Below are positions 49,207 through 63,300 of a stretch of DNA of 64,000 nucleotides, one piece after another; position 1 is the stretch's first letter; each line of letters opens with the position of its first letter. Position numbers and translations under genes: made by a program. Under the pieces are notes generated by a model that did not search any database, was not told the DNA's origin, and worked only from the letters and a program-made list of their open reading frames with translations. The stretch spans positions 32,001-96,000 of the IMG/VR virus record IMGVR_UViG_3300045120_000483; one strand, 5' to 3'. The DNA comes from a virus.

Positions 49207-49569
49207 ATGCGTAATCAAATTAAATTAAAAGAATACAATCGACAACATTATTTGAAAATTCGGGTTTATCGTCGTGATGAAGTATTGGACCGTCAGCGTT
49301 TTATTAGAGGCAGAGTTAGGGAACTTAAAGTTGAACTTGGGTGTTCGCTTTGTGGATACAATAAATGTGCCAGGGCTCTCCAATTTCATCATTTAAGTGG
49401 AAAAGATGAAAATGTAGCAAGAATGGCGGCTCAAGGAAGATCGATGAAGAGAATTCTTGAAGAGATAGATAAGTGTGTTTGTGTATGTGCTAATTGTCAT
49501 GCTGAATTACATGATGAAAAAGAGAAAAATAAAGCTCCGAAAGCTAACTTAGTAGAAGCGCCAGTCTGA
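49207..49569 (+). CDS. HNH homing endonuclease within the tRNA cluster
   Basis: GC..CGY..C..ALQFHH..K..EI.KC...CANCHAE.H; 3' end overlaps tRNA-Phe. Confidence 0.85.
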   Translation: MRNQIKLKEYNRQHYLKIRVYRRDEVLDRQRFIRGRVRELKVELGCSLCGYNKCARALQFHHLSGKDENVARMAAQGRSMKRILEEIDKCVCVCANCHAELHDEKEKNKAPKANLVEAPV

Positions 49570-49609
49570 AGAATTGGATGAGTGGGGGCGGAACCTACAC
49601 GGGGCACCA
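49534..49609 (+). tRNA. tRNA-Phe(GAA), T-loop GGCGGAA
   Basis: Cloverleaf, loop CTGAAGA, CCA. Confidence 0.8.
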
Positions 49610-49613
49610 TTTT

Positions 49614-49707
49614 TGATCGGTAGCTTAAGCAAAGCGTATCTCACCAAAGGCCATACTGTGGTTTTTGGGGAGGTAAGATGGAGGTCCAAGCCCTCCCTGA
49701 TCAGCCA
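49614..49707 (+). ncRNA. tRNA-like RNA with a 17-bp arm in place of the anticodon arm
   Basis: Acceptor TGATCGG/CTGATCA+GCCA, D arm GCTT/AAGC, T arm GGAGG/CCTCC. Confidence 0.7.
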
Positions 49708-49712
49708 ATTTA

Positions 49713-49785
49713 TGTCCGATGTAGCTTAAGCGTAAAGCAGACCTCCAAGGGAGGATCGTTGAGGGTTCAAGCCCCTCCCGGGCAG
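49713..49785 (+). ncRNA. tRNA-like RNA without an anticodon loop or CCA
   Basis: D arm GCTT/AAGC, CCTCC-AAG-GGAGG arm, T arm GAGGG TTCAAGC CCCTC. Confidence 0.55.
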
Positions 49786-50101: not shown

Positions 50102-50178
50102 GGGACTGTAGCTCAATTGGGAGAGCAACGCTTTTGCAAAGCGAAGGTTGTGGGTTCAAGTCCCACCTGTTTCCACCA
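50102..50178 (+). tRNA. tRNA-Ala(TGC), irregular acceptor stem
   Basis: Loop TTTGCAA, G3-U70, CCA. Confidence 0.8.
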
Positions 50179-50182
50179 TTAT

Positions 50183-50243
50183 GGAGGGGTACCGGCCGCC
50201 TCCGGATACGCTGGTCTCAAAGACCGTGAAAAGACCTCCACCA
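50183..50243 (+). ncRNA. CCA-ended mini-RNA, copy 1
   Basis: GGAGG/CCTCC+ACCA with two internal hairpins; homologous to 60553-60608. Confidence 0.65.
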
Positions 50244-50267
50244 AATTCTTATTATGGGAGAAAAGGA

Positions 50268-50711
50268 ATGAACTGGACGGATAATTATCCAGAGTTTACG
50301 GATACAGCTAATTGCTTTATACGGGCAACTAGTATAGCCCTAGAGAAATCATATGAAGACTCTTACAAAGAAGTTTCATTTCTCATTGAAAAGAATAATG
50401 ATCCGCCAGTGAGCCCCAATCAGGGTGTATATCTAGATGTTATGATTAACTACATGGAATCAGTAGGTTGGAAATGGAATGGAGTATCCCTCTACAGACC
50501 ACAACGAAATGATGTTTTAGTGGGGGGTTATCTCAGGGATGTCCCCAAAAAAGGTTGTTTCGTTGTCCTAATTTTTCTTCCTGATTTGAAACAACCGAAA
50601 CAACGTTATGATGGTCATGCCCTTGCTGTAATTGATGGCACTATTCATGAACATTCTGTTTTTAAAAAAGTTTTTGATGAGCACGCCCCTTTGTGGGGAT
50701 ATTTCTCATAG
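50268..50711 (+). CDS. hypothetical protein (possible C39-like Cys/His peptidase fold)
   Basis: NCFIRA.SIAL..Y and GH..AVIDG. Confidence 0.6.
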   Translation: MNWTDNYPEFTDTANCFIRATSIALEKSYEDSYKEVSFLIEKNNDPPVSPNQGVYLDVMINYMESVGWKWNGVSLYRPQRNDVLVGGYLRDVPKKGCFVVLIFLPDLKQPKQRYDGHALAVIDGTIHEHSVFKKVFDEHAPLWGYFS

Positions 50712-50729
50712 CAAAGTTTCCACCATTTC

Positions 50730-50804
50730 GCCTCTGTATTTTTAATGGTAGAAGTCATTCTTGGTACGAATGGAGATGGCGTTCGATTCGCCACTGAGGC
50801 ACCA
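50730..50804 (+). tRNA. tRNA-Thr(GGT)
   Basis: Loop TTGGTAC, TTCGATT, CCA. Confidence 0.85.
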
Positions 50805-50912
50805 TAGAAAAAGGAAAAGTTCAGAAGTAGGCAAGGGGGCTAGCCTCCGGTCGGTACTCTAGACCGGTGACCAACACAAATCGTTGGTCTGATAAATGGC
50901 CCTCAAATTTAA

Positions 50913-50996
50913 GGTGGATGGGGTCCAAGGTGGACACACGGCTTTGAATACCGTCCCTCCGAAAGGATGAGAGTTCGATTCTTTCATCCACCGCCA
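50913..50996 (+). tRNA. tRNA-Ser(TGA)
   Basis: Long variable arm, G73, loop TTTGAAT. Confidence 0.8.
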
Positions 50997-50998
50997 GT

Positions 50999-51115
50999 TT
51001 CTTCGAAGATCACTGTAGTAGGTGTGGGTTCATGTTCCTTCTAGACTATAAGGAGCTAGCCGTACTAACAGGTGTCTAGACCGATGTGGGCGATAATGTT
51101 AACCTTTCGAAGAAT
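50999..51115 (+). ncRNA. unidentified structured RNA between tRNAs
   Basis: TTCTTCGAAG/TTTCGAAGAA closing stem with internal helices. Confidence 0.5.
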
Positions 51116-51121
51116 TCAATT

Positions 51122-51203
51122 GCAGATATGGTGAAATGGAAAACACACTACGCTTAGAACGTAGCGCGAAAGCTTGCGGGTTCAAGTCCTGCTATCTGCA
51201 CCA
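51122..51203 (+). tRNA. tRNA-Leu(TAG)
   Basis: Class II cloverleaf, loop CTTAGAA, CCA. Confidence 0.92.
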
Positions 51204-51232
51204 TAAATACTAAAAAAACAGAGGAAAATGAA

Positions 51233-52078
51233 ATGAAAAAATTGAGAGAAATCCTGAATGAAAAATTTATTAAAGATATGTCCTCTGTGGAACATAAGAG
51301 ACATCGACAATCTGAAGCTGAAGGGAGCCAGTGGCATCAGGATCACCCCGTAAGTCATGAAAATATAATCAATCATTTTAATGCTGCCACTTCGGAGGAG
51401 CATCATAATGGGATGAGTTGGTATAAAGATGCTCATCATACGATGAAGGCTTTAGCTCATGACACCAAAACTCCCCATCATCAGATGGCGGGTCTAATTT
51501 CAAATTATTCGCCCCAGACACATTGGTTTACAAATATCCATACTGCCGCAAAAGTTGCCCGGGAGAAGAAAGCTGTGGGCGGCCCCGGATCAGGAGTTTT
51601 TGCTTCAGGTCAACAAAAACATGCTGCACATAGGATGTTGCAGGGGGAACATTATAATAACGTTCTTGTTGGACATAAGGTGAGACATTTTGCTCATTTA
51701 ATTGAGCATGGGGGCAATGAACATCCCGATCACCCCCATGTTGTGTTGGATCGTCATGCACATTCGGTGGCATCAGGAAGCCGTATTACTGATGCGGCAT
51801 TTAGTCAAGCCGGACTCAAATCCAAGAAAAAATATGCTGATATGAGTAATGCCTATATAAAAGCGGCTCATCATCTATCGGAAATTCACAAACAAACAAT
51901 TCATCCTCATCAAGTTCAGGCTGTAACTTGGCTGGTACGTCAACGGTTGAATGCTCAAGAAGATAAAGGGCAGGCGAAAAACAAAAGTAATAAGGCAAAA
52001 GATACATGGCACAAATATGCGGAGGAACATCATCCAAGTGTGATTGGTCAAGAGCCCGGAACAGGTTATGGCCATTGA
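51233..52078 (+). CDS. late protein with capsid-targeting-like N-terminus; putative HhH-glycosylase-like fold
   Basis: TAAATA at 51204; MKKLREILNE; WY..A, SPQ..W..N, KV..F, V.DRHA, QVQAVTW. Confidence 0.6.
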   Translation: MKKLREILNEKFIKDMSSVEHKRHRQSEAEGSQWHQDHPVSHENIINHFNAATSEEHHNGMSWYKDAHHTMKALAHDTKTPHHQMAGLISNYSPQTHWFTNIHTAAKVAREKKAVGGPGSGVFASGQQKHAAHRMLQGEHYNNVLVGHKVRHFAHLIEHGGNEHPDHPHVVLDRHAHSVASGSRITDAAFSQAGLKSKKKYADMSNAYIKAAHHLSEIHKQTIHPHQVQAVTWLVRQRLNAQEDKGQAKNKSNKAKDTWHKYAEEHHPSVIGQEPGTGYGH

Positions 52079-52087
52079 TTCAACTAA

Positions 52088-52163
52088 GCTTCACTAGCCC
52101 AGCGGTAGAGGCAGCAGATTTAAATCCTGTTAAGGCCGGGTCCGAATCCCGGGTGAAGCACCA
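52088..52163 (+). tRNA. tRNA-Leu(TAA), short variable loop
   Basis: Loop TTTAAAT, A73, CCA. Confidence 0.82.
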
Positions 52164-52169
52164 TTTAAT

Positions 52170-52245
52170 GGCTCTTTAGACAAACCGGCATAGTCGCTTC
52201 CCTCAAAAAGAAGAGTTCTGGATTCGAATTCCAGGAGAGCTACCA
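52170..52245 (+). tRNA. tRNA-Leu(CAA), short variable loop
   Basis: Loop CTCAAAA, CCA. Confidence 0.82.
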
Positions 52246-52254
52246 AAATATCTC

Positions 52255-52283
52255 TTGACATGTTCTGACACTTTGGTTATCAT
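52255..52283 (+). promoter_or_regulatory. sigma70-type promoter
   Basis: TTGACA-17-TATCAT. Confidence 0.65.
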
Positions 52284-52348
52284 ATTGAAAGTGGATGGGA
52301 AGCGCGTTGTGTTTTCGTCTTTCAACAAAAGCGGTCCCGTCCATTCTT

Positions 52349-52434
52349 GTTCTTAATTGTGGAATACCTTGCTGTTCAAGGGCTTATGCAAGGGATAGAC
52401 TTTGTAAGAAGGCGGTATTCCACAGTTAAGAACA
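52349..52434 (+). ncRNA. structured RNA with a 21-bp stem and terminal junction
   Basis: TGTTCTTAATTGTGGAATACC/GGTATTCCACAGTTAAGAACA. Confidence 0.6.
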
Positions 52435-52435
52435 T

Positions 52436-52526
52436 GGTGTTCCTGGCTGGCTTAATCTAAGCTTCCCACAAGTCGCTTAGAACGTTTTGTGGAACGTAAG
52501 GAAGGGTTCGAATCTCTTCGACACCA
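52436..52526 (+). ncRNA. tRNA-like RNA with an elongated arm displaying a Leu(TAG) anticodon loop
   Basis: GGTGTT/GACACC, T arm GAAGGG TTCGAAT CTCTTC, arm ending CG-CTTAGAA-CG. Confidence 0.6.
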
Positions 52527-52606
52527 TCGTAATAAGAACGGGATGATATCTTAACCCGAATAACGGCGAATCCTTCGGAAAAGTCGTTTCGTTCTTTCTT
52601 TTTAAT

Positions 52607-52682
52607 GCCCCTTTAGCTCAGTGACCAGAGCGGTTGTTTTACATACAACGGGTCGGGAGTTTGATTCTCTCAAGGGGTACCA
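52607..52682 (+). tRNA. tRNA-Val(TAC)
   Basis: Loop TTTACAT, CCA. Confidence 0.9.
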
Positions 52683-52687
52683 GAGAT

Positions 52688-52885
52688 AACGGTGTTGTCG
52701 CACCGTAGCCCGGTTTGACGGGCTTAAAGGATAGCAGTAGCGATACTGTCAAAGTAAGGAAGCTTACAGCCTTACACCGGAGCAATCCGGCCCATTCAAG
52801 CAGGTCCGGTTCACCCGAAAGGGCAGTCATACTAGACTGTGGCGGGAAGCAGGACGATGAGGAGACAAGACCCGAAAGGGATAAG
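52688..52885 (+). ncRNA. about 200-nt multi-hairpin ncRNA
   Basis: At least eight hairpins, several with GNRA loops; no credible ORF; between two tRNAs. Confidence 0.55.
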
Positions 52886-52890
52886 AATAT

Positions 52891-52964
52891 AGCCTAGTGC
52901 CGGAATGGTTACGGGACCGCCTGCAAAGCGGGAGACAGGAGTTCGATCCTCCTCTAGGCTTCCA
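52891..52964 (+). tRNA. tRNA-Cys(GCA)
   Basis: Loop CTGCAAA, U73, CCA. Confidence 0.88.
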
Positions 52965-53076
52965 GCACACCGATGAAGATATTCGTAGCGTTGTGGACCC
53001 GTGGCGAACGAATAAAAATAAGGGAGCAAATTTCAGTACGCGACTGACCCACAAGTTAACGGTTTTCCAATAGAAT

Positions 53077-53151
53077 GCATCTTTAGCTCAGAGGAAGAGT
53101 GTCGCATCGACATTGCGAAGGTCCGGATATCGTAATTCCGAAGATGTACCA
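53077..53151 (+). tRNA. tRNA-Val(GAC)
   Basis: Loop TCGACAT, T-loop ATCGTAA, CCA. Confidence 0.82.
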
Positions 53152-53172
53152 CCTTAAACAAAAGGAAACATT

Positions 53173-53322
53173 ATGTTTGAAGCTCTGTTGATGACAATTT
53201 TAATTGCTGTTGTTATTGTGGTTATAGCGGAATGGTTTTCTCCGGATGCCCGTCTTACATGGATTGTTCGTTTGTTGGTTTTTGTTTGGTTGATTTACAA
53301 GCTTCTTCCGTTTTTGAAGTAA
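53173..53322 (+). CDS. small two-TM membrane protein (49 aa)
   Basis: Read by hand; AAGGA RBS. Confidence 0.55.
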   Translation: MFEALLMTILIAVVIVVIAEWFSPDARLTWIVRLLVFVWLIYKLLPFLK

Positions 53323-53329
53323 AGTTAAT

Positions 53330-53408
53330 GTGGGAGTAGGGGAGTCTGGCCGTCCCCTCTTGCCTTGGAAGCAAGAAATCGTGAGTTCGAATCTCACTTC
53401 CCGCACCA
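53330..53408 (+). tRNA. tRNA-Pro(TGG)
   Basis: Loop CTTGGAA, TTCGAAT, CCA. Confidence 0.9.
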
Positions 53409-53422
53409 TTTAGGAGTTGATA

Positions 53423-53611
53423 ATGTTTTGGAAAAGCCTTACACCCCCTGAAGCCGTTGAGTATTATAATCTTCTACAAAAGATTAGCATTTGGTCGGGC
53501 CACTGTGAGACTTGTCGAAAGGCAAAGTCTCCGGTACAAGAAGACTTGCGACCAACGGACCAAGAGTTTATGCGTTGGAATGAACTGTTCTGGAAATTTT
53601 GGACAAAATAA
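53423..53611 (+). CDS. hypothetical protein
   Basis: AGGAG RBS. Confidence 0.5.
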   Translation: MFWKSLTPPEAVEYYNLLQKISIWSGHCETCRKAKSPVQEDLRPTDQEFMRWNELFWKFWTK

Positions 53612-53651
53612 AACATAATTCTAGCTAATCGGAGAAGCGACGTTAGTTTAT

Positions 53652-53728
53652 GGGGGTATAGTTCAAAGGTAGAATAGGCGCTTGATAGGCGTTTGATCGT
53701 TCGGGTTCGATTCCCCGTATCCCTACCA
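53652..53728 (+). tRNA. tRNA-Ile(GAT)
   Basis: Loop TTGATAG, CCA. Confidence 0.85.
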
Positions 53729-53747
53729 GTTTTTTAAAAGCAATCGT

Positions 53748-54080
53748 CTATTTAGCGTCGTCTGGCGACGTGGAATAATCGTCTGGAGACAACTCCACAA
53801 GAGGTTGGGGTGGCGCTTCGGGAGTGTGCTCTGTCTGAATCCTAGCCATTGCCAGGGCATCGGAAGTTGATCGTAAAGTAAAAGCTAGCTTAGCTAGGTC
53901 TTTGTTATATTTACTAATACCGGCCTCAATGCCTTTGTCAATTTCTTTCTGGATGTCAACCCTGTCTTCTTGACAGTTTTTATAGTATAAATCGTCACAC
54001 TCCCGGTCCCTTCGGGCTAGTTCTCTATCATGCAGGATAATTGCTTCTAGGGTGGCGACGATCATTTGTCGAAAGTTCAT
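53748..54080 (-). CDS. late hypothetical protein
   Basis: TAAATA on the minus strand at about 54103; RBS. Confidence 0.55.
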   Translation of the reverse strand: MNFRQMIVATLEAIILHDRELARRDRECDDLYYKNCQEDRVDIQKEIDKGIEAGISKYNKDLAKLAFTLRSTSDALAMARIQTEHTPEAPPQPLVELSPDDYSTSPDDAK

Positions 54081-54148
54081 TTAATTTCCCTCTCTAAATC
54101 AATATTTATCGCTTGACATTCCTTATAATATAAAGTATCATTATTGGA

Positions 54149-54706
54149 ATGAATAGAGATTTTACCAGAATCAACGATGCCTGTATGTACGCCGGTCTGG
54201 CCCATGCATCCATTGGGCAGGTACGTAAGTACAGTAAAGAGTCCTATATCGTTCATCCCATGCGGGTTTGCCGCCTTCTTGATGAAGTGGGGGAAACCGA
54301 TGATGTTCTTATTGGCGCTCTTCTTCATGATGTGGTAGAAGATACGCCGATTACGTTGGCGGAAATTCAGGCCAAATTTGGGATGGAAATTGCCAAATAT
54401 GTGGAAGGGATGACAGATGTCTCTAAACCTGAGGATGGTAACAGAGCCGTTCGTAAAACGATTGATAGGGAGCATTCTTGGGAAGCGTGTGGAGAATCCC
54501 AGACGATCAAGTGTGCGGACCTTATCGACAACACAGAGGACATTACTTCCCACGATAAAGATTTCTCTCAGGTTTACCTCCGGGAAAAGAGACTACTTCT
54601 TCCGGGTCTGACCAAAGCCAATCCAGCCCTTATTCAAAAGGCCTGGGAGACATTGGAAGCCGCTGAAATCAAAATTTTTGGAATTATTCAAGGAGAAAGA
54701 ACATGA
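54149..54706 (+). CDS. HD-domain small alarmone hydrolase (SpoT/Mesh1-like)
   Basis: AH..Q.RK...YIVHP, ALLHDVVEDT, IK.AD..DN. Confidence 0.88.
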   Translation: MNRDFTRINDACMYAGLAHASIGQVRKYSKESYIVHPMRVCRLLDEVGETDDVLIGALLHDVVEDTPITLAEIQAKFGMEIAKYVEGMTDVSKPEDGNRAVRKTIDREHSWEACGESQTIKCADLIDNTEDITSHDKDFSQVYLREKRLLLPGLTKANPALIQKAWETLEAAEIKIFGIIQGERT

Positions 54707-54933
54707 AGGTTGACGTGAAGGTGACTAGTGCGGGGAACGGCTCCCGGGCATATCCTAAAATTAGAAGGAGTATTGCCTACCAATACTTGGTTTGGTTCTC
54801 CACCCCTACAGTGGGGATAGTTGTATCCCAAGGTACGGGAACACAACTTCCCGGAAAATATTCAAATGATTGGGCCCCGGAGTGTTTTGAAGAGTGGACG
54901 GGAGAGGTCGTTTTAACGCTGACACAGGAGTAA
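54703..54933 (+). CDS. hypothetical protein (paralog family A)
   Basis: YP..YLVWF....GIVV..YS..W..F...G.V.L. Confidence 0.6.
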   Translation: MKVDVKVTSAGNGSRAYPKIRRSIAYQYLVWFSTPTVGIVVSQGTGTQLPGKYSNDWAPECFEEWTGEVVLTLTQE

Positions 54934-54936
54934 ATC

Positions 54937-55188
54937 ATGACATTGAGAGTCAAAGCTACAGAGGCCGAAGCTAAGAAAGCTGAGTTAGCGTTTCCCTGCC
55001 TGATGAGGTCCAAGAGCGATGGTTGGATTATGTTAGTTACGGGGGTAGAGAATAATATTGTTAGTGGTATGGTTGTTTCCGATCCTAATAAGTATTGGTC
55101 TTCTCCGATCTTGAGATATTCGAATCGAATGACCGCTATTTCGACTCTTGAACCCTGGGTTGGTAAGGTAGAGTTTATTTCAGAGTAA
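54937..55188 (+). CDS. hypothetical protein (paralog family A)
   Basis: FPCL..GMVV..YS..W.GKV. Confidence 0.6.
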   Translation: MTLRVKATEAEAKKAELAFPCLMRSKSDGWIMLVTGVENNIVSGMVVSDPNKYWSSPILRYSNRMTAISTLEPWVGKVEFISE

Positions 55189-55192
55189 GCCG

Positions 55193-55303
55193 GATGGTGG
55201 ACAGTGAGGATGCATTCCCTGAGTGGTCAAAAGGGCCGGTCTTTTAAACCGATGCGAAAGCTACGTGGGTTCGAATCCCCCTGCATCCTCACTGTCCATT
55301 ATC
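55193..55303 (+). ncRNA. tRNA-Lys(TTT)-like RNA with a class II body sealed in a 22-bp stem, no CCA
   Basis: Cloverleaf at 55208-55288 with loop CTTTTAA; flanks add 15 more base pairs to the acceptor stem. Confidence 0.75.
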
Positions 55304-56131
55304 ATATAATTTATAGAGGTCTTTGATTTTAAGACCGGTTTTGTTTTCTACATAACTGAAAACCTCCTGGAGGTCCGGTAGATAAAGAATTTGGATGGGT
55401 TCTGTTACTCCTGAAAGTTTAAAGTCATCAACGGGAGATTTGAAGCCTTTGATTTCGATTAATTTTCCGTTTACCCGAAAGTCTGGGTAAAAGTTATGTT
55501 CTCTTTGAGTTATAGGATTGAAGTATAGATAAGGGGCCTTGTTTCTAGTAATGGAAATTTGGTGTTCTGTGCAAAAAATATAGTAAGCTATTTCGTATGT
55601 GGAATTACAAAAAAATCCTTGATAGTATCCCTGTTTTCCTCTCCCCGCCCGGTGTCGAAAGCATCCAGGTTTTCCTTTTTTAGTTATGCTGATATTCTTC
55701 GCAGAAAGCGCCTTATTGCACTTAAGAGAACATGTCTTTAAACGTCGGTGTGTATATGGAAGAGGTACCTTGCATTCTTGACATATTGAGGGAGATTGCA
55801 AATAAAGCTTTTTTGTGATTAAAGATTTTTGTTGTCCTGATATTCTAGAAATTTCCGAAAGACGTTTTTTAGTTTCTGATGAATGTTGCCACCCGCTTTC
55901 TTCTCTCTTTTTCATATTAGCTTTAGCTCCACAAGATTTAGAACAATACCGATATAAGCGACTTTTGTAGGAAATAGGATTCTGACAAAATTCACAGATT
56001 TTTGGGTTTAAAGCGTATTTTTGTTGACTACGCTCAGAAAGCCTGATACCATGGCAAGTAGGAGAACAAATTTTACTTCGCGGGTCTTGAGGGGTAAAAG
56101 GGGCTGAACAAACAAGACAAGAAATTGTCAT
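55289..56131 (-). CDS. putative PD-(D/E)XK homing endonuclease with zinc-ribbon repeats
   Basis: CxxC..CS..C repeats; S.YE..FYPDF..IEIKG; late promoter at about 56170. Confidence 0.75.
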   Translation of the reverse strand: MTISCLVCSAPFTPQDPRSKICSPTCHGIRLSERSQQKYALNPKICEFCQNPISYKSRLYRYCSKSCGAKANMKKREESGWQHSSETKKRLSEISRISGQQKSLITKKLYLQSPSICQECKVPLPYTHRRLKTCSLKCNKALSAKNISITKKGKPGCFRHRAGRGKQGYYQGFFCNSTYEIAYYIFCTEHQISITRNKAPYLYFNPITQREHNFYPDFRVNGKLIEIKGFKSPVDDFKLSGVTEPIQILYLPDLQEVFSYVENKTGLKIKDLYKLYDNGQ

Positions 56132-56191
56132 TTCTAGAATTAACTCCGGAGTTGATAGGTTACAACTCTATTTATCTTCCAAAATATAGAT

Positions 56192-56268
56192 GGATCAATG
56201 GCTAGACTGGCAATGCAACGGACTCTTAATCCGTCCCCATGGGGGTTCGATTCCCCCTTGATCCTCCA
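56192..56268 (+). tRNA. tRNA-Lys(CTT)
   Basis: Loop CTCTTAA, TTCGATT, CCA. Confidence 0.88.
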
Positions 56269-56275
56269 AAATTAT

Positions 56276-56339
56276 GCGGAGTTCCGATCTGGAAGTAACA
56301 AGAACTAATAGGATTTATCCTGATTAGTCCTCCGCACCA
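56276..56339 (+). ncRNA. CCA-ended two-hairpin mini-RNA
   Basis: GCGGAG/CTCCGC+ACCA; hairpins TTCC/GGAA and ACTAAT..ATTAGT. Confidence 0.6.
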
Positions 56340-56344
56340 AGTTT

Positions 56345-56420
56345 ACCCGTAGATGCTGCTAGTTGTGGCAGAATGATTGTCAATCATTTGAGTGGAGGGC
56401 AGAACTCCATACGGGTGCCA
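56345..56420 (+). tRNA. tRNA-Asp(GTC), T-loop GGCAGAA
   Basis: Loop TTGTCAA, G73, CCA. Confidence 0.82.
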
Positions 56421-56425
56421 TTTAA

Positions 56426-56482
56426 GGGGTCGGGTATATTGGTACCAGATAAGATGCGGTAAAAGTCCGTCTCACCCCACCA
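56426..56482 (+). ncRNA. CCA-ended mini-tRNA lacking an anticodon arm
   Basis: GGGGT/ACCCC+ACCA; D-like GGTA TATTGG TACC; T-like CGG TAAAAGT CCG. Confidence 0.55.
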
Positions 56483-56487
56483 AGTCA

Positions 56488-56556
56488 GGAAGAAACATCG
56501 GTGCAAATCCGGTACAGATAACGGTTTCTGTTCGTCCAGTAGACTAGGACGCTTCC
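56488..56556 (+). ncRNA. circularly permuted tRNA-like RNA 1
   Basis: GGAAG, variable AAAC, T arm, looped acceptor stem, TC, D arm, G, CTTCC. Confidence 0.75.
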
Positions 56557-56649
56557 GCTCCTACCTGGGTATAGCTTTCCCCTAAGAGTGGTTTCTGGGG
56601 GTAAAGGGTGAGCGTCCCATAAAAAACGGAACCCACTAATTTTGAGCTA

Positions 56650-56723
56650 GGGGGAGATACGGTTCGATTCCGATACTAGTCGCGCGTGAAAGCTAGTTGG
56701 ACCTAATGGATATGGTCGCCCCC
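56650..56723 (+). ncRNA. circularly permuted tRNA-like RNA 2
   Basis: GGGGG, variable, T arm (TTCGATT), looped acceptor ACTAGT/GCTAGT, TG, D arm GACC/GGTC, G, CCCCC. Confidence 0.75.
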
Positions 56724-56727
56724 GTTA

Positions 56728-56818
56728 CCCGTCTAGAACTGGTGTTCAGAGGAGCCTTATAAACTCTTTGCTCCGGACTGGAGTCTTTGGCGCGGATCGT
56801 AACCGTGAGGCGGGACCA
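56728..56818 (+). tRNA. tRNA with TAT (Ile) anticodon, long variable arm, minimal D arm
   Basis: CCCGTCT/AGGCGGG+ACCA, loop CCTTATAAA, variable stem GCTCC/GGAGT, T-loop ATCGTAA. Confidence 0.65.
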
Positions 56819-56834
56819 ATTTAAGGAGTCTGTT

Positions 56835-57002
56835 ATGGAAGATGAAGAGGAAATATTCTACCGGGTTAAGTGTGTTCATTGCGGTCGTTTCATGTCGTCC
56901 AAAGACGCCCGTTATCACTTTATTCCGGATAGTCATTTTGGACCGGAAGAGGGATGGTGGGAGCATCGGGGATACTGTAATGAAAATATATCTAAAGTTT
57001 GA
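56835..57002 (+). CDS. small zinc-finger hypothetical protein
   Basis: AAGGAG RBS; C..CGRF..PDS.F. Confidence 0.55.
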   Translation: MEDEEEIFYRVKCVHCGRFMSSKDARYHFIPDSHFGPEEGWWEHRGYCNENISKV

Positions 57003-57372
57003 TGAGAATGTCTTTCCCCCGAAGCTGACGCTTTCTGTCAAAGGTGCTCCCCATTCCCGTCAACACCGGGCAATTTTTAAGACTTATCGAAATGCAATCT
57101 GGGAAGCTTGGGAGAAGGCAGGTTATAATCATCAGATTGATTATCCCATTGACCTGGACGTAATTTTTTGTGATCCGGCATCACCAGATTTAGACCATAC
57201 CCTAATGGCGCTCTATTCTGCTATTGATGGCAAGTCCACGCTGAAGGGTAATAAGAATGACAAGAGTCCAAGGCACCCGGCTCTGATGACGGATGATGGA
57301 TATATTTCAGAAATTCGAATGCGAAACTTCTGGCCTAACGAAGCTACCAGAGCCGACAACCGAATCTATTAA
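56980..57372 (+). CDS. RusA-like fold protein (degenerate)
   Basis: PDLD..L...DG..DD..I pattern; catalytic Lys replaced. Confidence 0.45.
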   Translation: MKIYLKFDENVFPPKLTLSVKGAPHSRQHRAIFKTYRNAIWEAWEKAGYNHQIDYPIDLDVIFCDPASPDLDHTLMALYSAIDGKSTLKGNKNDKSPRHPALMTDDGYISEIRMRNFWPNEATRADNRIY

Positions 57373-57386
57373 CAGGGAGAGAGATT

Positions 57387-57701
57387 ATGCAAGCAGAGAT
57401 CAAGACCAAGTGGGCGAACGCTCTTCGTTCCGGAAAGTATGCCCAGGGCACCGGGGGCCTTAAGAAAGATAATGCCTTTTGTTGTTTGGGAGTCCTTTGT
57501 GATATTATTAATCCCGATGGTTGGGAGGATAGTACCATACCATCCCAAAGATTTACTTATGGAGGAGAAAGTTCTTATTGTTCCTTACCCGAAAGCCTAA
57601 AGACAGAGCTTGGGTTTAAAGCTACTCTGAGGTTCATTGAAATGAATGATCAACAAGGACGATCTTTCGACTATATTGCAGATTATGTGGAGAACCTATG
57701 A
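57387..57701 (+). CDS. hypothetical protein (paralog family B)
   Basis: W..ALRSG.Y.QG..CCLGVLC..MND..F..IADY. Confidence 0.7.
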   Translation: MQAEIKTKWANALRSGKYAQGTGGLKKDNAFCCLGVLCDIINPDGWEDSTIPSQRFTYGGESSYCSLPESLKTELGFKATLRFIEMNDQQGRSFDYIADYVENL

Positions 57702-57886
57702 CCGTCCTGGAGCAATTTATAGAAACTTTTGGGGAAGCTTGTGATATGGATTCGCCGGACAGACTGTTTGTCTTCAAATCAATTCTTCTTGAGTTTGCCA
57801 CCTTGGCTATAAATGATAAGGACTTTCAAGAAGAAGTGCTTTCCGAAGCAAAGAAGGTCAATGAAATTTTAGCTAAAATGACATAA
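57698..57886 (+). CDS. hypothetical protein
   Basis: Coupled ORF. Confidence 0.5.
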   Translation: MTVLEQFIETFGEACDMDSPDRLFVFKSILLEFATLAINDKDFQEEVLSEAKKVNEILAKMT

Positions 57887-57962
57887 GCCTACGTAATTCA
57901 ATGGATAGAAATCATGCCTTCGAAGCATGAAGTTGCGGGTCCGAATCCTGCCGTAGGTTCCA
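57887..57962 (+). tRNA. tRNA-Arg(TCG)
   Basis: Loop CTTCGAA, CCA. Confidence 0.85.
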
Positions 57963-57981
57963 CCTTAAAAAAGGATATATT

Positions 57982-58329
57982 ATGAAGCAACATAGTTTTC
58001 GTTATATTCTGCTTGAGCTTTTTGATGGAAATAATGTTTATTGGGATTATGGGTCGCCGCTCATTCTGAGAAAAGATGAAACTTTTACATTTTTTGCGGC
58101 TTATTCTGCCAAAGATTTTCCGGAGTTTGAGGACCGACTAGCCATCAATTCTATGATACTTCCTAAAAAAGTAGTCTGGAAATGGGATGATCTAGGTTCT
58201 AAAAAAGAGGCGGCCGGTACTTTCTCCTTGAGAGAGAAGCTTCCAGATTTTGCGCGCAGACTATCTGTCAAAGGTGTTAATGATCCAACAGCCCTTAAAG
58301 CTGAAGGTCGGGTCCTGACCAAAGACTAA
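57982..58329 (+). CDS. hypothetical protein
   Basis: AAGGA RBS. Confidence 0.5.
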   Translation: MKQHSFRYILLELFDGNNVYWDYGSPLILRKDETFTFFAAYSAKDFPEFEDRLAINSMILPKKVVWKWDDLGSKKEAAGTFSLREKLPDFARRLSVKGVNDPTALKAEGRVLTKD

Positions 58330-58355
58330 ATTCACTTGTAGTCATACAACACTAT

Positions 58356-58820
58356 TTACTTGCATTCGTCAAAAATCTGAAATGCCACAATTTGATCTGC
58401 CATCATGTAGCTGACTTTAGGCGTCAGGGGTCGTCTAGTGTCGATGAATGCCTGGACGATCTCCGGATAGAATCTTCGAATTAGCATATCAGTTAGTTCG
58501 GGTTCCGGAACACTCCCTCTAGGGGTCTGGGTAGATGCCAAATGAAAACCAAAGCTGGCCCGGGGAGTCACACAGACTTGTTCCTTGGGAAGCATCAGAA
58601 CAAGGGTACAGGCAGAGACACACCAGCCATCGATTTTGACCGGGGCATGAGAGGCCAGAAGGCGTTTATACCATTTGTTATATTCATCGACTTCGCCACC
58701 CCAATCATCTGCAATGGTGAAGTAGGTCTGACCGGAAGAGATAGAGGAAGTAGCAGGTTGGGCAAAACAGGTGGAGATTGTCAGAAAAAGAGCAAAAAAA
58801 GTCGAAAGAAATCTTGACAT
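58356..58820 (-). CDS. secreted ClpP/crotonase-like protein
   Basis: Signal peptide; D.GG, IDG.C.SACT, CVTP.A.FGFH. Confidence 0.7.
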   Translation of the reverse strand: MSRFLSTFFALFLTISTCFAQPATSSISSGQTYFTIADDWGGEVDEYNKWYKRLLASHAPVKIDGWCVSACTLVLMLPKEQVCVTPRASFGFHLASTQTPRGSVPEPELTDMLIRRFYPEIVQAFIDTRRPLTPKVSYMMADQIVAFQIFDECK

Positions 58821-58961
58821 GGGGCCTCTCTCTTGATAAGATACTAGGCATATTTAGCAAATTAGGAATTAGCCCGGAAGTAAGGCAATTCCTGATACCG
58901 AAGAAGGGGACTAACGTATTCCTCTTTTTCACCCCAATTTTCTGTGAAAAGGAACTTTATT

Positions 58962-59309
58962 ATGTCAGAGGTAGAGAAAGTCGTTCTGTCCCCCGAACAA
59001 ATTCTGAATAGGGCAGCCGACCTGATTGATAAGAATGGTTTGGCCAAGGCAAGCTTTTGTACGGCGGACTTAGGAAACGATTGGACGGAACAGGATTGTT
59101 TCTGTATAGCGGGGGCTATTGCTTTTGCTTCTGGTTATTCTGGTTCGCCCCGGTCTCCAATAAAATTACATAAGGCTTATAGTATTCCCCTTGAGAAGGA
59201 GTTTAGAGACTCTACTGAGGCCTTTGAATGGAATGATGACCCCAAAACCACCAAAAAAATGGTAGTCAATTGTTTGAGAGATATGGCAAAGAAGGAGACG
59301 AAATCATGA
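58962..59309 (+). CDS. hypothetical protein (paralog family C)
   Basis: AADLI.KNGL..C.CIAGA..WND. Confidence 0.65.
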   Translation: MSEVEKVVLSPEQILNRAADLIDKNGLAKASFCTADLGNDWTEQDCFCIAGAIAFASGYSGSPRSPIKLHKAYSIPLEKEFRDSTEAFEWNDDPKTTKKMVVNCLRDMAKKETKS

Positions 59310-59629
59310 GCACTCTGAAGGATGTCTATCTAAAAGCGGCGGAATTGATTGAGAAGAATGGCCTCTACACGGCCGGGGGATATGCCAATAAACCTCTTTA
59401 TTGTTGTAAAGAAAATGATTGTGTTTGTATAGCCGGGGCAGTTGTGATTGCTAAGGGGTTGTTGCTTGGTAAAGATGAATTCGATAATTATGCTAAAGAA
59501 GCAACAAAACCTTTGTTTTGTTATTTTGACCCGGATGGTCAATATGATAAACTGTTTGATTGGAATGACAGTCAAGGTACCAAGGAAGCAGCTATAGCAA
59601 TCCTGAAAGAGATTGCCGAAACACTGTGA
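59306..59629 (+). CDS. hypothetical protein (paralog family C)
   Basis: AAELI.KNGL..C.CIAGA..WND. Confidence 0.65.
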   Translation: MSTLKDVYLKAAELIEKNGLYTAGGYANKPLYCCKENDCVCIAGAVVIAKGLLLGKDEFDNYAKEATKPLFCYFDPDGQYDKLFDWNDSQGTKEAAIAILKEIAETL

Positions 59630-59851
59630 GTTTTAGTCCACATGAAGCATTTGCCGCATGGTGGAACGCTCATTCCCATGAGGATCGACAAAGGTTAGTA
59701 ACTGATAATGTACATATTGCTCTTGGAACGTGGGAGAGGATCGAAGGCCGGGATGTTTATATACGACAAATAGGTCAAAGTTACAGAGTTTGCCCGATCA
59801 GTATATTTTCGGAGCCATTAATTGGTGGTCCCGAATCGGGCACCAGTTCAA

Positions 59852-59925
59852 GCGGGAGTAGTTCAATGACAGAACATTGCTTTGCCAAGGCAAATACGGG
59901 GGTTTGATTCCCCCTTTCCGCTCCA
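59852..59925 (+). tRNA. tRNA-Gly(GCC)
   Basis: Loop TTGCCAA, U73, CCA. Confidence 0.9.
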
Positions 59926-59931
59926 GTTTAT

Positions 59932-60018
59932 GGAAATGTCAACTAGCGGGGAGCTAGCACTGTTTGGAAAACAGTTGAGACCGAAAGGTTGAGGGATCGT
60001 TTCCCTGAGTTTCCGCCA
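59932..60018 (+). tRNA. tRNA-Ser(GGA), atypical
   Basis: Loop TTGGAAA, long variable arm, G73. Confidence 0.72.
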
Positions 60019-60027
60019 TTTTAAGTA

Positions 60028-60103
60028 GGGCCTGTAGTGATAGAAGGTAGCATTCCGCACTTGCAATGCGGGGGACACGGGGCAGTACCGTGCTGGTCCA
60101 CCA
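60028..60103 (+). tRNA. tRNA-Ala(TGC), second copy, T-loop GGCAGTA
   Basis: G3-U70, loop CTTGCAA, CCA. Confidence 0.82.
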
Positions 60104-60129
60104 TTTAACATAATGAAAGGAAATACATC

Positions 60130-60597
60130 ATGGAAGCGTCAGAGGTTTTGAAGATTGTTGCTAACGGACTGGCCTCTCAGGGGGGCCCGGCTTATGAAAG
60201 TGGAGCGTGTCTTTATCGGGCTTCGGGAGGTCGAAAGTGTGCGGCCGGATGGATCATTACCGATGAAGAGATTATGAGGGGCGTTCGGAGTATGAATTTA
60301 TCTAGCTTGAAACATGAAGGAACCCTTCCAAAGAGTTGTGAGGAACATTTTAGTCTATTAGAATTATTGCAAGAAGTTCATGATAGTTGTGCTTTGAATT
60401 ATTCATATGTTTCAGTAACAAAACCCGAACCGGATCAATTGGCTATGTGGAAGAATGTCCATGGACCATGCGGTATTGCAACCAAACTGAGAAGGGTTGC
60501 CCGGGAAAATGATCTTGATCCGGAGATTGTGACTGAAGCGTTCAAAAATTATGGAGGGGTCACGGCCGATTCCGATGATGCTAGAAATAGCGAATAA
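60130..60597 (+). CDS. hypothetical protein
   Basis: QG..C.YR..G.KCAAG..I..LQ..HD; 3' end overlaps a mini-RNA. Confidence 0.65.
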   Translation: MEASEVLKIVANGLASQGGPAYESGACLYRASGGRKCAAGWIITDEEIMRGVRSMNLSSLKHEGTLPKSCEEHFSLLELLQEVHDSCALNYSYVSVTKPEPDQLAMWKNVHGPCGIATKLRRVARENDLDPEIVTEAFKNYGGVTADSDDARNSE

Positions 60598-60608
60598 AAC
60601 CTCCGCCA
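60553..60608 (+). ncRNA. CCA-ended mini-RNA, copy 2
   Basis: GGAGG/CCTCC+GCCA; shares GGAGGGGT..CGGCCG..TCCG with 50183-50243. Confidence 0.65.
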
Positions 60609-60706: not shown

Positions 60707-60787
60707 TCCCACGAAGGCGAAGCAAGGTGCATTCGCGTCCGCTGTTAACGGAAGATTAGGCAGGTTCGATTCCTGCGGTGGGAGCCA
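60707..60787 (+). tRNA. tRNA-Asn(GTT)
   Basis: U1-A72, G73, loop CTGTTAA. Confidence 0.85.
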
Positions 60788-61353: not shown

Positions 61354-61383
61354 TTGACAACCCCTCTTTCATTCAATATAATG
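61354..61383 (+). promoter_or_regulatory. consensus sigma70 promoter
   Basis: TTGACA-17-TATAAT. Confidence 0.8.
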
Positions 61384-62593: not shown

Positions 62594-62669
62594 ACCCCAG
62601 TACCGGTCTTGTTTCCTAAACAAGATACCGTAAGGGACTATAGGGGTCCGACTCCCCTCTGGGGTTCCA
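62594..62669 (+). tRNA. tRNA-Arg(CCT) with absent or displaced D arm
   Basis: ACCCCAG/CTGGGGT+TCCA, TCTTGT TTCCTAA ACAAGA. Confidence 0.7.
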
Positions 62670-63214: not shown

Positions 63215-63300
63215 AGAAAGCTAACCAGATGGGTTCTGGACACGCCTGCTAAGCGTTGTGTCCCTGAGGGGGTGTGGGTCGGGACCACAGTTTTCTGCCA
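63215..63300 (+). tRNA. tRNA-Ser(GCT)
   Basis: Loop CTGCTAA, long variable arm, G73. Confidence 0.8.

What the first reader, a model, noticed from the sequence alone, without database searches (positions are those of the whole stretch)
50183..60608. Two-copy family of ~60-nt CCA-ended RNAs that are not tRNAs
50183-50243 is GGAGGGGTACCGGCCGCCTCCGGATAC..GAAAAGACCTCCACCA. 60553-60608 is GGAGGGGTCACGGCCGATTCCGATGAT..GAATAAAACCTCCGCCA. Both have a GGAGG/CCTCC stem with NCCA, a CGG-CCGNNT-CCG hairpin, a second hairpin that differs in sequence but still pairs, and an A-rich linker. Divergent copies 10 kb apart with the same layout suggest a real motif. Copy 2 is hidden inside the 3' end of an ORF. 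The discriminators differ (A vs G), which could give different identities.
Basis: seen in the sequence. Interest (0 to 1): 0.75.

Follow-up and report, generated by a model that had tools for sequence, protein, structure and literature searches.

The report
Paired mini tRNA-like RNAs, phage array
An uncultured T4-like soil phage carries, inside its long row of tRNA genes, two related 56-61-base genes that keep a tRNA's acceptor stem and CCA tail but have no loop that could read a codon; they are probably real tRNA mimics, but their job is unknown and no relatives were found.

Summary
Copies at 50183-50243 and 60553-60608 (+ strand) share a 5-bp GGAGG/CCUCC terminal stem with a free NCCA tail. 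They also share a 7-bp hairpin with a bulged A and a 6-nt CCGNNU loop, a second hairpin of unrelated sequence, and an 8-nt A-rich linker. Both sit in tRNA-gene slots of a + strand array of at least 40 CCA-encoding genes and have the array's usual A/T leader. A strict scan for such genes gave 9 extra hits in the 15.3-kb array and 2 in the other ~194 kb of strand sequence. ARAGORN and Rfam (E<=10) call neither copy, and neither fold offers a workable 7-nt anticodon loop. They are best read as non-decoding, tRNA-processed small RNAs, analogous but not homologous to T4 RNAC/RNAD. The weak points are that there are only two sequences (one compensatory pair), no homologs in any searched collection, and no RNA data. 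The nearest relative of the ORF that overlaps copy 2 ends exactly where copy 2 begins. The same array holds several more anticodon-less tRNA look-alikes, and earlier unchecked notes of this scan describe similar mini-RNAs in other phage arrays. Function (acceptor-end decoy, processing mark or relic) remains inference.

The parts
50183..50243 (+). Copy 1 (E1), 61 nt. It starts 4 nt (TTAT) after the CCA of tRNA-Ala(TGC), and the next ORF's likely ATG is at 50268.
50183..50187 (+). E1 5' strand of the terminal (acceptor-like) stem, GGAGG. It pairs with 50235-50239 (CCTCC).
50189..50209 (+). E1 hairpin 1: 7 bp, bulged A, 6-nt loop CCGCCT.
50212..50226 (+). E1 hairpin 2: a U-G pair plus GGTCT/AGACC, loop CAA.
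50227..50234 (+). E1 A-rich linker (8 nt).
50240..50243 (+). E1 single-stranded ACCA tail (discriminator A).
60553..60608 (+). Copy 2 (E2), 56 nt. It ends 9 nt before tRNA-Asn(GTT) and overlaps the last 15 codons of ORF 60130-60597.
60553..60557 (+). E2 5' strand of the terminal stem, GGAGG. It pairs with 60600-60604 (CCTCC).
60559..60579 (+). E2 hairpin 1: 7 bp including G-U, bulged A, 6-nt loop CCGATT.
60580..60591 (+). E2 hairpin 2: GCTA/TAGC with GAAA tetraloop.
60592..60599 (+). E2 A-rich linker (8 nt).
60605..60608 (+). E2 single-stranded GCCA tail (discriminator G).
50178..50182 (+). The 5 nt before E1, ATTAT. The first A is the last base of tRNA-Ala's CCA, so the spacer proper is TTAT. 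This is the A/T-only leader type seen before most tRNA genes of the array, with T at -1.
60548..60552 (+). Leader ATTAT before E2, identical to the 5 nt before E1.

Best explanation
E1 and E2 are paralogous genes for small non-decoding tRNA-like RNAs. The proposed path is as follows. They are transcribed with the neighbouring tRNAs from the array's sigma-70-type promoters. Their 5' end is cut by RNase P directly before G1; the substrate features are U at -1, a G1-C pair and a purine-CCA 3' end. Their 3' end is trimmed to the encoded CCA. This would release a 56-61-nt three-way junction that shows a tRNA-like acceptor end but cannot read a codon. The most likely use is as an acceptor-end mimic that occupies a protein which normally binds tRNA 3' ends, for example a host tRNA-directed defence enzyme. 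Shown: sequence, fold, tRNA-type flanks, position in the array, and absence of an anticodon loop. Inferred: expression, processing, stability and the decoy role.
For: (1) Flanks. All 29 CCA-encoding genes listed carry short, mostly A/T-only leaders (TTAAT, TTTAT, ATTAT). E1 and E2 share ATTAT|G and CCA|AATT. E1 starts 4 nt after tRNA-Ala and E2 ends 9 nt before tRNA-Asn. (2) Enrichment. The descriptor was a terminal stem of at least 5 bp, free NCCA, an A/T leader and a stable fold. Besides known tRNAs it gave 9 hits on the + strand of the 15.3-kb array, E1 and E2 among them. It gave 0 on the array's - strand and only 2 in the rest of the genome on both strands. (3) Structure. Hairpin 1 keeps 7 bp through A-U to C-G, G-C to G-U and a one-position register shift. 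Only 3.9% of random 8-substitution mutants keep 7 bp. Hairpin 2 is different sequence in the two copies, yet it is a perfect hairpin in both; 0.07% (E2) and 3.7% (E1) of shuffles fold as well. The G-U pairs and the weaker reverse-strand folds favour a + strand RNA. (4) Not coding. E1 is intergenic. The closest homolog of the ORF that overlaps E2 ends ...KNYS, exactly where E2 begins. (5) Not a tRNA. ARAGORN gives no call and Rfam gives no match at E<=10. Hairpin 1 has a 6-nt loop. The 3-4-nt loops of hairpin 2 cannot open to a 7-nt loop in E2. (6) Context. The same array holds further anticodon-less tRNA look-alikes. (7) Precedent from papers. Hairpin model substrates are cut by bacterial RNase P, 3'-CCA influences cleavage, and phage M3 and C4 RNAs are RNase P substrates (PMC11143913). 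T4 makes two small RNAs of unknown role from its tRNA region (PMC3014915, PMC9697503). An isolated acceptor stem with CCA is enough to be modified by the toxin MenT1 (PMC10435456).
Against: There are only two sequences: one fully compensatory pair, and shuffles reach the observed covariation in 256 of 500 trials. Fold z-scores are weak. No homolog turned up in IMG/VR, in isolated phages, in GTDB species genomes or in 136 fetched phage loci or records searched with the model, the T4 tRNA region included. The relative's ORF end implies that E2 is absent, or different, at that position in the nearest known relative, so the element is not deeply conserved. The terminal stem has 5 bp, not 7. The long coaxial partner would lie on the 5' side, unlike the acceptor/T-arm stack that RNase P, the CCA-adding enzyme and EF-Tu measure. 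Nothing in the genome links the RNAs to a particular partner protein.
Confidence: 0.55

Rival explanations
1. Relics: E1 and E2 are internally deleted leftovers of a duplicated tRNA gene. They may still be cut out of the precursor because the acceptor end survives, but they have no function of their own.
For: Phage tRNA arrays grow by duplication. No homologs were found outside this genome. The nearest relative of ORF 60130-60597 lacks the read-through tail, so E2 looks lineage-specific. With two sequences the covariation is not significant.
Against: The two copies differ at about a third of their positions, yet both keep every stem. This includes a compensatory pair, a register shift and a wholly replaced but perfect hairpin 2. 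Decay would be expected to break stems. No parent tRNA with a GGAGG acceptor stem exists in the array. The array's other minis are also cleanly folded.
Confidence: 0.2
2. Processing marks: the elements work only in cis, as tRNA-like handles for RNase P and 3' trimming. They would punctuate the polycistronic transcript and set the ends of neighbouring mRNAs and tRNAs, as plant mitochondrial t-elements do.
For: E1 lies between tRNA-Ala and the next ORF. E2 lies between an ORF and tRNA-Asn. ORFs and tRNAs alternate on one strand, with few promoters and no clear terminators.
Against: E1 sits 4 nt after a normal tRNA, which already provides an RNase P and 3'-end site. Likewise E2 sits 9 nt before tRNA-Asn, so a further mark is redundant at both places. 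A plain hairpin with NCCA would do the job, so the conserved hairpin 1 loop and three-way junction are not explained.
Confidence: 0.15
3. Not RNA genes at all: a chance resemblance, a DNA-level repeat (a recombination or homing site), or a short peptide gene starting at the ATG that overlaps G1.
For: BLAST alone joins the copies only through 13- and 14-nt blocks. An ATG overlaps the start of both copies and gives the peptides MEG.RP.P... (read directly).
Against: The two copies are collinear over the whole length, with the same spacing and the same flanks as tRNA genes. No Shine-Dalgarno sequence precedes the ATG. The differences are not synonymous, and the two reading frames end after 34 and 21 codons with unrelated tails. 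The longest identical run is 13 nt, which is too short for a recombination repeat. The enrichment of such genes is strand- and array-specific.
Confidence: 0.05

Closest known systems
Phage T4 RNAC and RNAD (species 1 and 2 stable RNAs, genes rnaC and rnaD)
   Same: They are small non-tRNA RNAs encoded on the tRNA strand inside the tRNA cluster of a T4-type phage, directly next to tRNA genes. Their function is still unknown (PMC3014915, PMC9697503). RNAC carries a tRNA-like T arm and a terminal stem.
   Different: T4 RNAC and RNAD are 139 and 119 nt, against 56-61 nt here. There is no sequence or model similarity: the best R1 score on the T4 region is 6.8 bits at E 1.7. The annotated T4 genes do not end in an encoded CCA. 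E1 and E2 have no T arm.
Acceptor/T-arm minihelices and hairpin model substrates of bacterial RNase P
   Same: Both have a G1-C pair at the helix end, a pyrimidine at -1, a purine discriminator plus CCA, and a short helix that presents a tRNA-like 3' end (PMC11143913, PMC12710915).
   Different: Those are laboratory constructs with one continuous 12-bp helix. E1 and E2 are natural genes with a 5-bp stem, two extra hairpins and an A-rich junction strand.
Irregular and allo-tRNAs in soil and phage tRNA polycistrons (Mukai et al., PMC5389517)
   Same: They are non-canonical tRNA-shaped genes in polycistrons from soil and phages. Some were shown to be charged but not used in translation, and they were discussed as regulatory RNAs. 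This array also holds 8-bp-acceptor His and Ser tRNAs of the kind described there.
   Different: Allo-tRNAs keep a full cloverleaf with an anticodon loop. E1 and E2 have neither a T arm nor an anticodon loop.
Armless or T-armless mitochondrial tRNAs of nematodes (PMC12221289, PMC7609411)
   Same: They are of similar size (42-60 nt) and end in an acceptor stem plus CCA.
   Different: Those keep a 7-nt anticodon loop and decode. E2 cannot form one.

Membership tests
Canonical tRNA (Rfam RF00005) | Cloverleaf recognised by tRNA models | tested here: not met
   ARAGORN and Rfam at the gathering threshold give no call. Rfam at E<=10 gives no match on either copy.
Canonical tRNA (Rfam RF00005) | 7-nt anticodon loop on a 5-bp stem | tested here: not met
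   The loops are 6 nt (hairpin 1) and 3 or 4 nt (hairpin 2). The 4-nt loop of E2 can open only to 6 or 8 nt.
Canonical tRNA (Rfam RF00005) | Acceptor stem with discriminator and CCA | tested here: met
   A 5-bp G-C-rich stem is followed by ACCA or GCCA, and the flanks are those of the array's tRNA genes.
T4 RNAC/RNAD | Encoded in the tRNA cluster of a T4-type phage, on the tRNA strand | tested here: met
   The phage has a gp43-type DNA polymerase (39% identity to cyanomyoviruses) and the elements lie in the + strand array. The T4 layout is shown.
T4 RNAC/RNAD | Sequence or structure homology to rnaC or rnaD | tested here: not met
   Model R1 on the T4 tRNA region scores at best 6.8 bits, E 1.7. 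Sizes and folds differ.
T4 RNAC/RNAD | Accumulates as a stable small RNA during infection | not testable with these tools
   No RNA run holds the locus.
RNase P hairpin or minihelix substrates | U(-1), G(+1)-C pair and a 3' RCCA | tested here: met
   The leader is ..ATTAT|G, the first pair is G1-C, and the tails are ACCA and GCCA.
RNase P hairpin or minihelix substrates | About 12 bp of coaxial helix below the cleavage site | tested here: inconclusive
   The 5-bp terminal stem plus the 7-bp hairpin 1 adds up to 12 bp. However, the continuity runs through the 5' strand and is interrupted by G6 and a bulged A. Geometry cannot be tested here.
RNase P hairpin or minihelix substrates | Cleavage by RNase P | not testable with these tools
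   This needs an in vitro assay.
tmRNA tRNA-like domain | G3:U70 alanine identity, a T arm, and detection by ARAGORN or Rfam | tested here: not met
   Position 3:70 is A-U. There is no T arm and no tmRNA call.

The most novel reading that the evidence does not exclude
E1 and E2 belong to a set of at least nine non-decoding tRNA mimics in one phage array. They act as acceptor-end decoys. Their A73 and G73 tails soak up a host immune enzyme that attacks or extends tRNA 3' ends (for example AbiEii/MenT-type nucleotidyltransferases, which accept a bare acceptor stem), or they are charged and divert a synthetase. This would be a counter-defence made of RNA only.
Probability: 0.15. Interest if true: 0.85.

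Novelty: new variant of a known kind. Interest (0 to 1): 0.55.

Why it matters
Phage tRNA genes are now read largely as weapons against bacterial immunity that cuts or blocks tRNAs. The small non-tRNA RNAs that T4 makes from its tRNA region have had no known role for fifty years. A phage that spends two slots on a conserved 60-nt acceptor-end mimic, and several more on other anticodon-less look-alikes, gives compact and easily synthesised test objects. They could be tested for RNase P processing, charging, and binding or protection against tRNA-end-directed toxins. If the elements are only relics, they still show how tRNA arrays decay, and they show that standard tRNA finders miss about a third of the CCA-ended genes in this array.

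Tried and rejected
- **IMG/VR pattern scans.** The 5'-half motif gave 2 chance hits in high-GC coding DNA. Both stems plus NCCA gave none. Both ends with a free middle gave 10 hits, none of them tRNA-like or next to tRNAs.
- **GTDB species genomes, same pattern.** There were 14 hits, all in high-GC coding-like sequence without tRNA-type flanks.
- **blastn of E1 against 50,697 phage records.** Only a 23-nt chance match was found.
- **Relatives through proteins.** Exact-peptide searches with the neighbouring ORFs and the DNA polymerase found nothing in IMG/VR. Alignment-based searches gave 79 metagenome loci, 52 DUF7178 loci and 80 polymerase loci at 43% identity or less. Model R1 found nothing significant in the first two sets, in 5 whole records or in the T4 tRNA region.
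- **Closer relatives exist but could not be fetched.** The best polymerase relative among 5.8 billion proteins is only 56% identical. Closer fragments exist, namely P0002 and P0004.
- **Sequencing runs.** Only the probable source soil metagenome holds the locus, and no RNA holder is listed. Laying its contigs showed no variants.
- **Hammerhead or other ribozyme reading.** Rejected on inspection because the core motifs are absent, and Rfam gave nothing.
- **Anti-Shine-Dalgarno sponge idea.** Set aside, because GGAGG and CCUCC are paired with each other.
- **Array ORFs.** Pfam and PHROGs searches gave no tRNA enzyme: only an HD-domain protein, DUF7178, DUF6197 and families of unknown function.
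- **Earlier findings by sequence.** No look-alike was found.
Full report
**What is there.** The window is bases 32001-96000 of a 104,881-bp IMG/VR virus record, estimated 59% complete, from a soil metagenome. It encodes T4-type replication genes. These include a gp43-type family B DNA polymerase (39% identical to cyanomyovirus polymerases), a UvsX-like recombinase and a DnaB-like helicase. From about 48.9 kb to beyond 64 kb the + strand carries a long tRNA array. ARAGORN finds 25 tRNAs in the window and one more just beyond it. Rfam adds two.

They are the only matches to GGAGG..CCTCCNCCA in the whole record.

**Anatomy.** Both copies fold into the same three-way junction:
- a 5-bp G-C-rich terminal stem with a free 4-nt tail (ACCA or GCCA);
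- one unpaired G;
- hairpin 1, with 7 bp, a bulged A and the 6-nt loop CCGNNU;
- hairpin 2, which is GGUCU-CAA-AGACC in copy 1 and GCUA-GAAA-UAGC in copy 2;
- an 8-nt A-rich strand that leads back to the terminal stem.

The alignment has 38 invariant columns. Conservation runs 5 nt upstream (ATTAT) and about 7 nt downstream.

**Are they genes of the array?** I listed all CCA-ended genes with their flanks. Nearly every tRNA here encodes its CCA and is preceded by a short A/T-only leader (TTAAT, TTTAT and the like). E1 and E2 have ATTAT|G and CCA|AATT. E1 begins 4 nt after the CCA of tRNA-Ala, and E2 ends 9 nt before tRNA-Asn. These are the same spacings as between neighbouring tRNAs.

A strict descriptor gave strong enrichment. 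It required a terminal stem of at least 5 bp, free NCCA, an all-A/T 5-nt leader and a stable fold. Outside the known tRNAs it found 9 elements on the + strand of the 15.3-kb array, E1 and E2 among them. It found none on the array's - strand and only 2 in the other ~90 kb on both strands together. There is no promoter or terminator dedicated to either copy. Strong sigma-70 consensus promoters sit elsewhere in the array, so co-transcription with the tRNAs is the simplest reading.

**RNA, not protein or DNA.** E1 lies in the gap between tRNA-Ala and the likely ATG (50268) of the next ORF. That ORF's PHROG match needs no N-terminal extension. E2 overlaps the last 15 codons of ORF 60130-60597. The closest homolog of this ORF (P0002, 63% identity) ends ...AFKNYS, exactly at the codon where E2 begins. 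The window ORF's tail is therefore read-through into the RNA gene. This also means the relative has no identical E2 at that spot.

G-U pairs (G7-U27 in E2, U30-G44 in E1) and weaker reverse-strand folds point to a + strand RNA.

**How strong is the structural evidence?** It is modest. On the pairs that can be aligned, all 22 cells pair. There is one compensatory change (A-U to C-G) and one G-C to G-U change. With two sequences this is not significant, since 256 of 500 shuffles do as well. Simulation adds some support:
- after 8 random substitutions, only 3.9% of hairpin 1 mutants keep 7 bp;
- only 0.07% of shuffles of the E2 hairpin 2 region fold as well as the real sequence;
- for the E1 hairpin 2 region the figure is 3.7%.

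A hairpin that was replaced by unrelated sequence yet is perfect in both copies is the best single argument for selection on the fold.

**Not tRNAs.** ARAGORN and Rfam at the gathering threshold do not call them. Rfam at E<=10 gives no match to any of its 4227 families. Hairpin 1 has a 6-nt loop. The 4-nt loop of E2 hairpin 2 can open only to 6 or 8 nt. There is no T arm. Position 3:70 is A-U, so the alanine G3:U70 rule is not met.

**Search for relatives.** No homolog was found in any of the following searches:
- three pattern scans of IMG/VR (inspected);
- one pattern scan of 185,579 species genomes;
- blastn against 50,697 phage records;
- covariance-model searches of 131 fetched loci, 5 whole phage records and the T4 tRNA region.

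The lineage is poorly sampled. The best DNA polymerase relative among 5.8 billion proteins is 56% identical. No RNA run holds the locus.

**Context.** The array is full of irregular members that standard tools miss.
- Decoders with an unusual T loop (GGCRGWA) and D loops without GG: Phe, Asp, a second Ala and His.
- His and Ser(GCT) genes with 8-bp acceptor stems, of the kind Mukai et al. described in soil bacteria and phages (PMC5389517).
- Non-decoders: a 94-nt tRNA body with a 17-bp rod in place of the anticodon arm, a neighbouring 73-nt body, a 76-nt one with a 9-bp triloop hairpin, and a 91-nt one that shows the Leu(UAG) loop on an over-long arm.
- Three more minis of 64, 57 and 54 nt.

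E1 and E2 are the only pair among these related by sequence; the R1 model finds only those two in the genome. Earlier, mostly unchecked notes of this scan describe the same set in this genome. They also describe CCA-ended minis in several other phage arrays. A quick look at three other arrays fetched here showed no clear equivalents.

**Mechanism.** The features that bacterial RNase P reads at the cleavage site are all present: U at -1, a G1-C pair and a purine-CCA tail. Hairpin substrates and small phage RNAs (M3, C4) are known RNase P substrates (PMC11143913, PMC12710915). I therefore propose co-transcription with the tRNAs, RNase P cleavage before G1, and trimming to the encoded CCA. This would give a stable 56-61-nt RNA that offers a tRNA-like 3' end and nothing to decode with.

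As for use, I rank an acceptor-end mimic (decoy or competitor) first. My reasons are that the whole array seems to collect tRNA mimics, that phage tRNA loci are known counter-defence loci (PMC10264068, PMC13096335), and that at least one tRNA-end-modifying toxin accepts a bare acceptor stem (PMC10435456). This step is inference. A relic (0.2) and a cis-acting processing mark (0.15) remain open.

**Comparison and verdict.** The elements work like T4 RNAC and RNAD: small non-tRNA RNAs embedded in the tRNA cluster of a T4-type phage, with unknown function (PMC3014915, PMC9697503). They are not members of that family, because size, fold and sequence all differ. They are a new, smaller variant of a known but unexplained kind.

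Noticed in passing
window 49534-49609, 56345-56420, 60028-60103, 63988-64061: Four apparent decoders are missed by ARAGORN and by Rfam at its gathering threshold: Phe-GAA, Asp-GTC, a second Ala-TGC with G3:U70, and His-GTG. They share an unusual 7-nt T loop (GGCRGWA instead of TTCRANY) and D loops without GG. This suggests an alternative elbow. The His gene has an 8-bp acceptor stem, A73 and no G-1, like the 8/4 tRNA-His of alpha-proteobacterial phages in PMC5389517.
   Followed up: partly
window 59932-60018, 63215-63300, 56728-56818, 60707-60787: These are further uncalled CCA-ended genes: Ser-GGA and Ser-GCT (long variable arm, the latter with an 8-bp acceptor stem), a 91-nt type II-like gene with an unclear anticodon, and an 81-nt gene with a normal T loop.
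   Followed up: partly
window 49614-49707, 49713-49785, 62594-62669, 52436-52526: These are tRNA bodies without a usable anticodon arm. One has a 17-bp rod with a triloop, a neighbouring one has a CCUCC-AAG-GGAGG arm, and one has a 9-bp hairpin with a triloop. A 91-nt RNA shows the same 11 nt (CG-CUUAGAA-CG) as the anticodon loop of the true tRNA-Leu(UAG) at 51122, but on an over-long arm.
   Followed up: partly
window 56276-56339, 56426-56482, 59792-59845: These are three more CCA-ended minis (64, 57 and 54 nt) with tRNA-type flanks. They are unrelated in sequence to E1/E2. Two of them fold far better than shuffles (z -3.4 and -4.0). In two, a long hairpin abuts the 3' acceptor strand like a T arm.
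   Followed up: partly
window 60130-60597: The ORF's last 15 residues (GGVTADSDDARNSE region) are absent from its 63%-identical homolog, which stops right after ..KNY. The tail is read-through into E2.
   Followed up: yes
window 61354-61382, 52255-52283, 54113-54141: Perfect or near-perfect sigma-70 consensus promoters (TTGACA-17-TATAAT) lie on the + strand directly after tRNA genes. The array is probably transcribed in several host-polymerase units.
   Followed up: no
window 51233-52078: A DUF7178 gene sits inside the array. Its relatives (40-66% identity) are common in large uncultured phages of very different G+C content and in Lentzea (actinomycete) genomes, mostly away from tRNA arrays.
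   Followed up: partly
window 55208-55290: The tRNA-Lys(TTT) call is 83 nt long and, unlike nearly all other genes of the array, is not followed by an encoded CCA.
   Followed up: no
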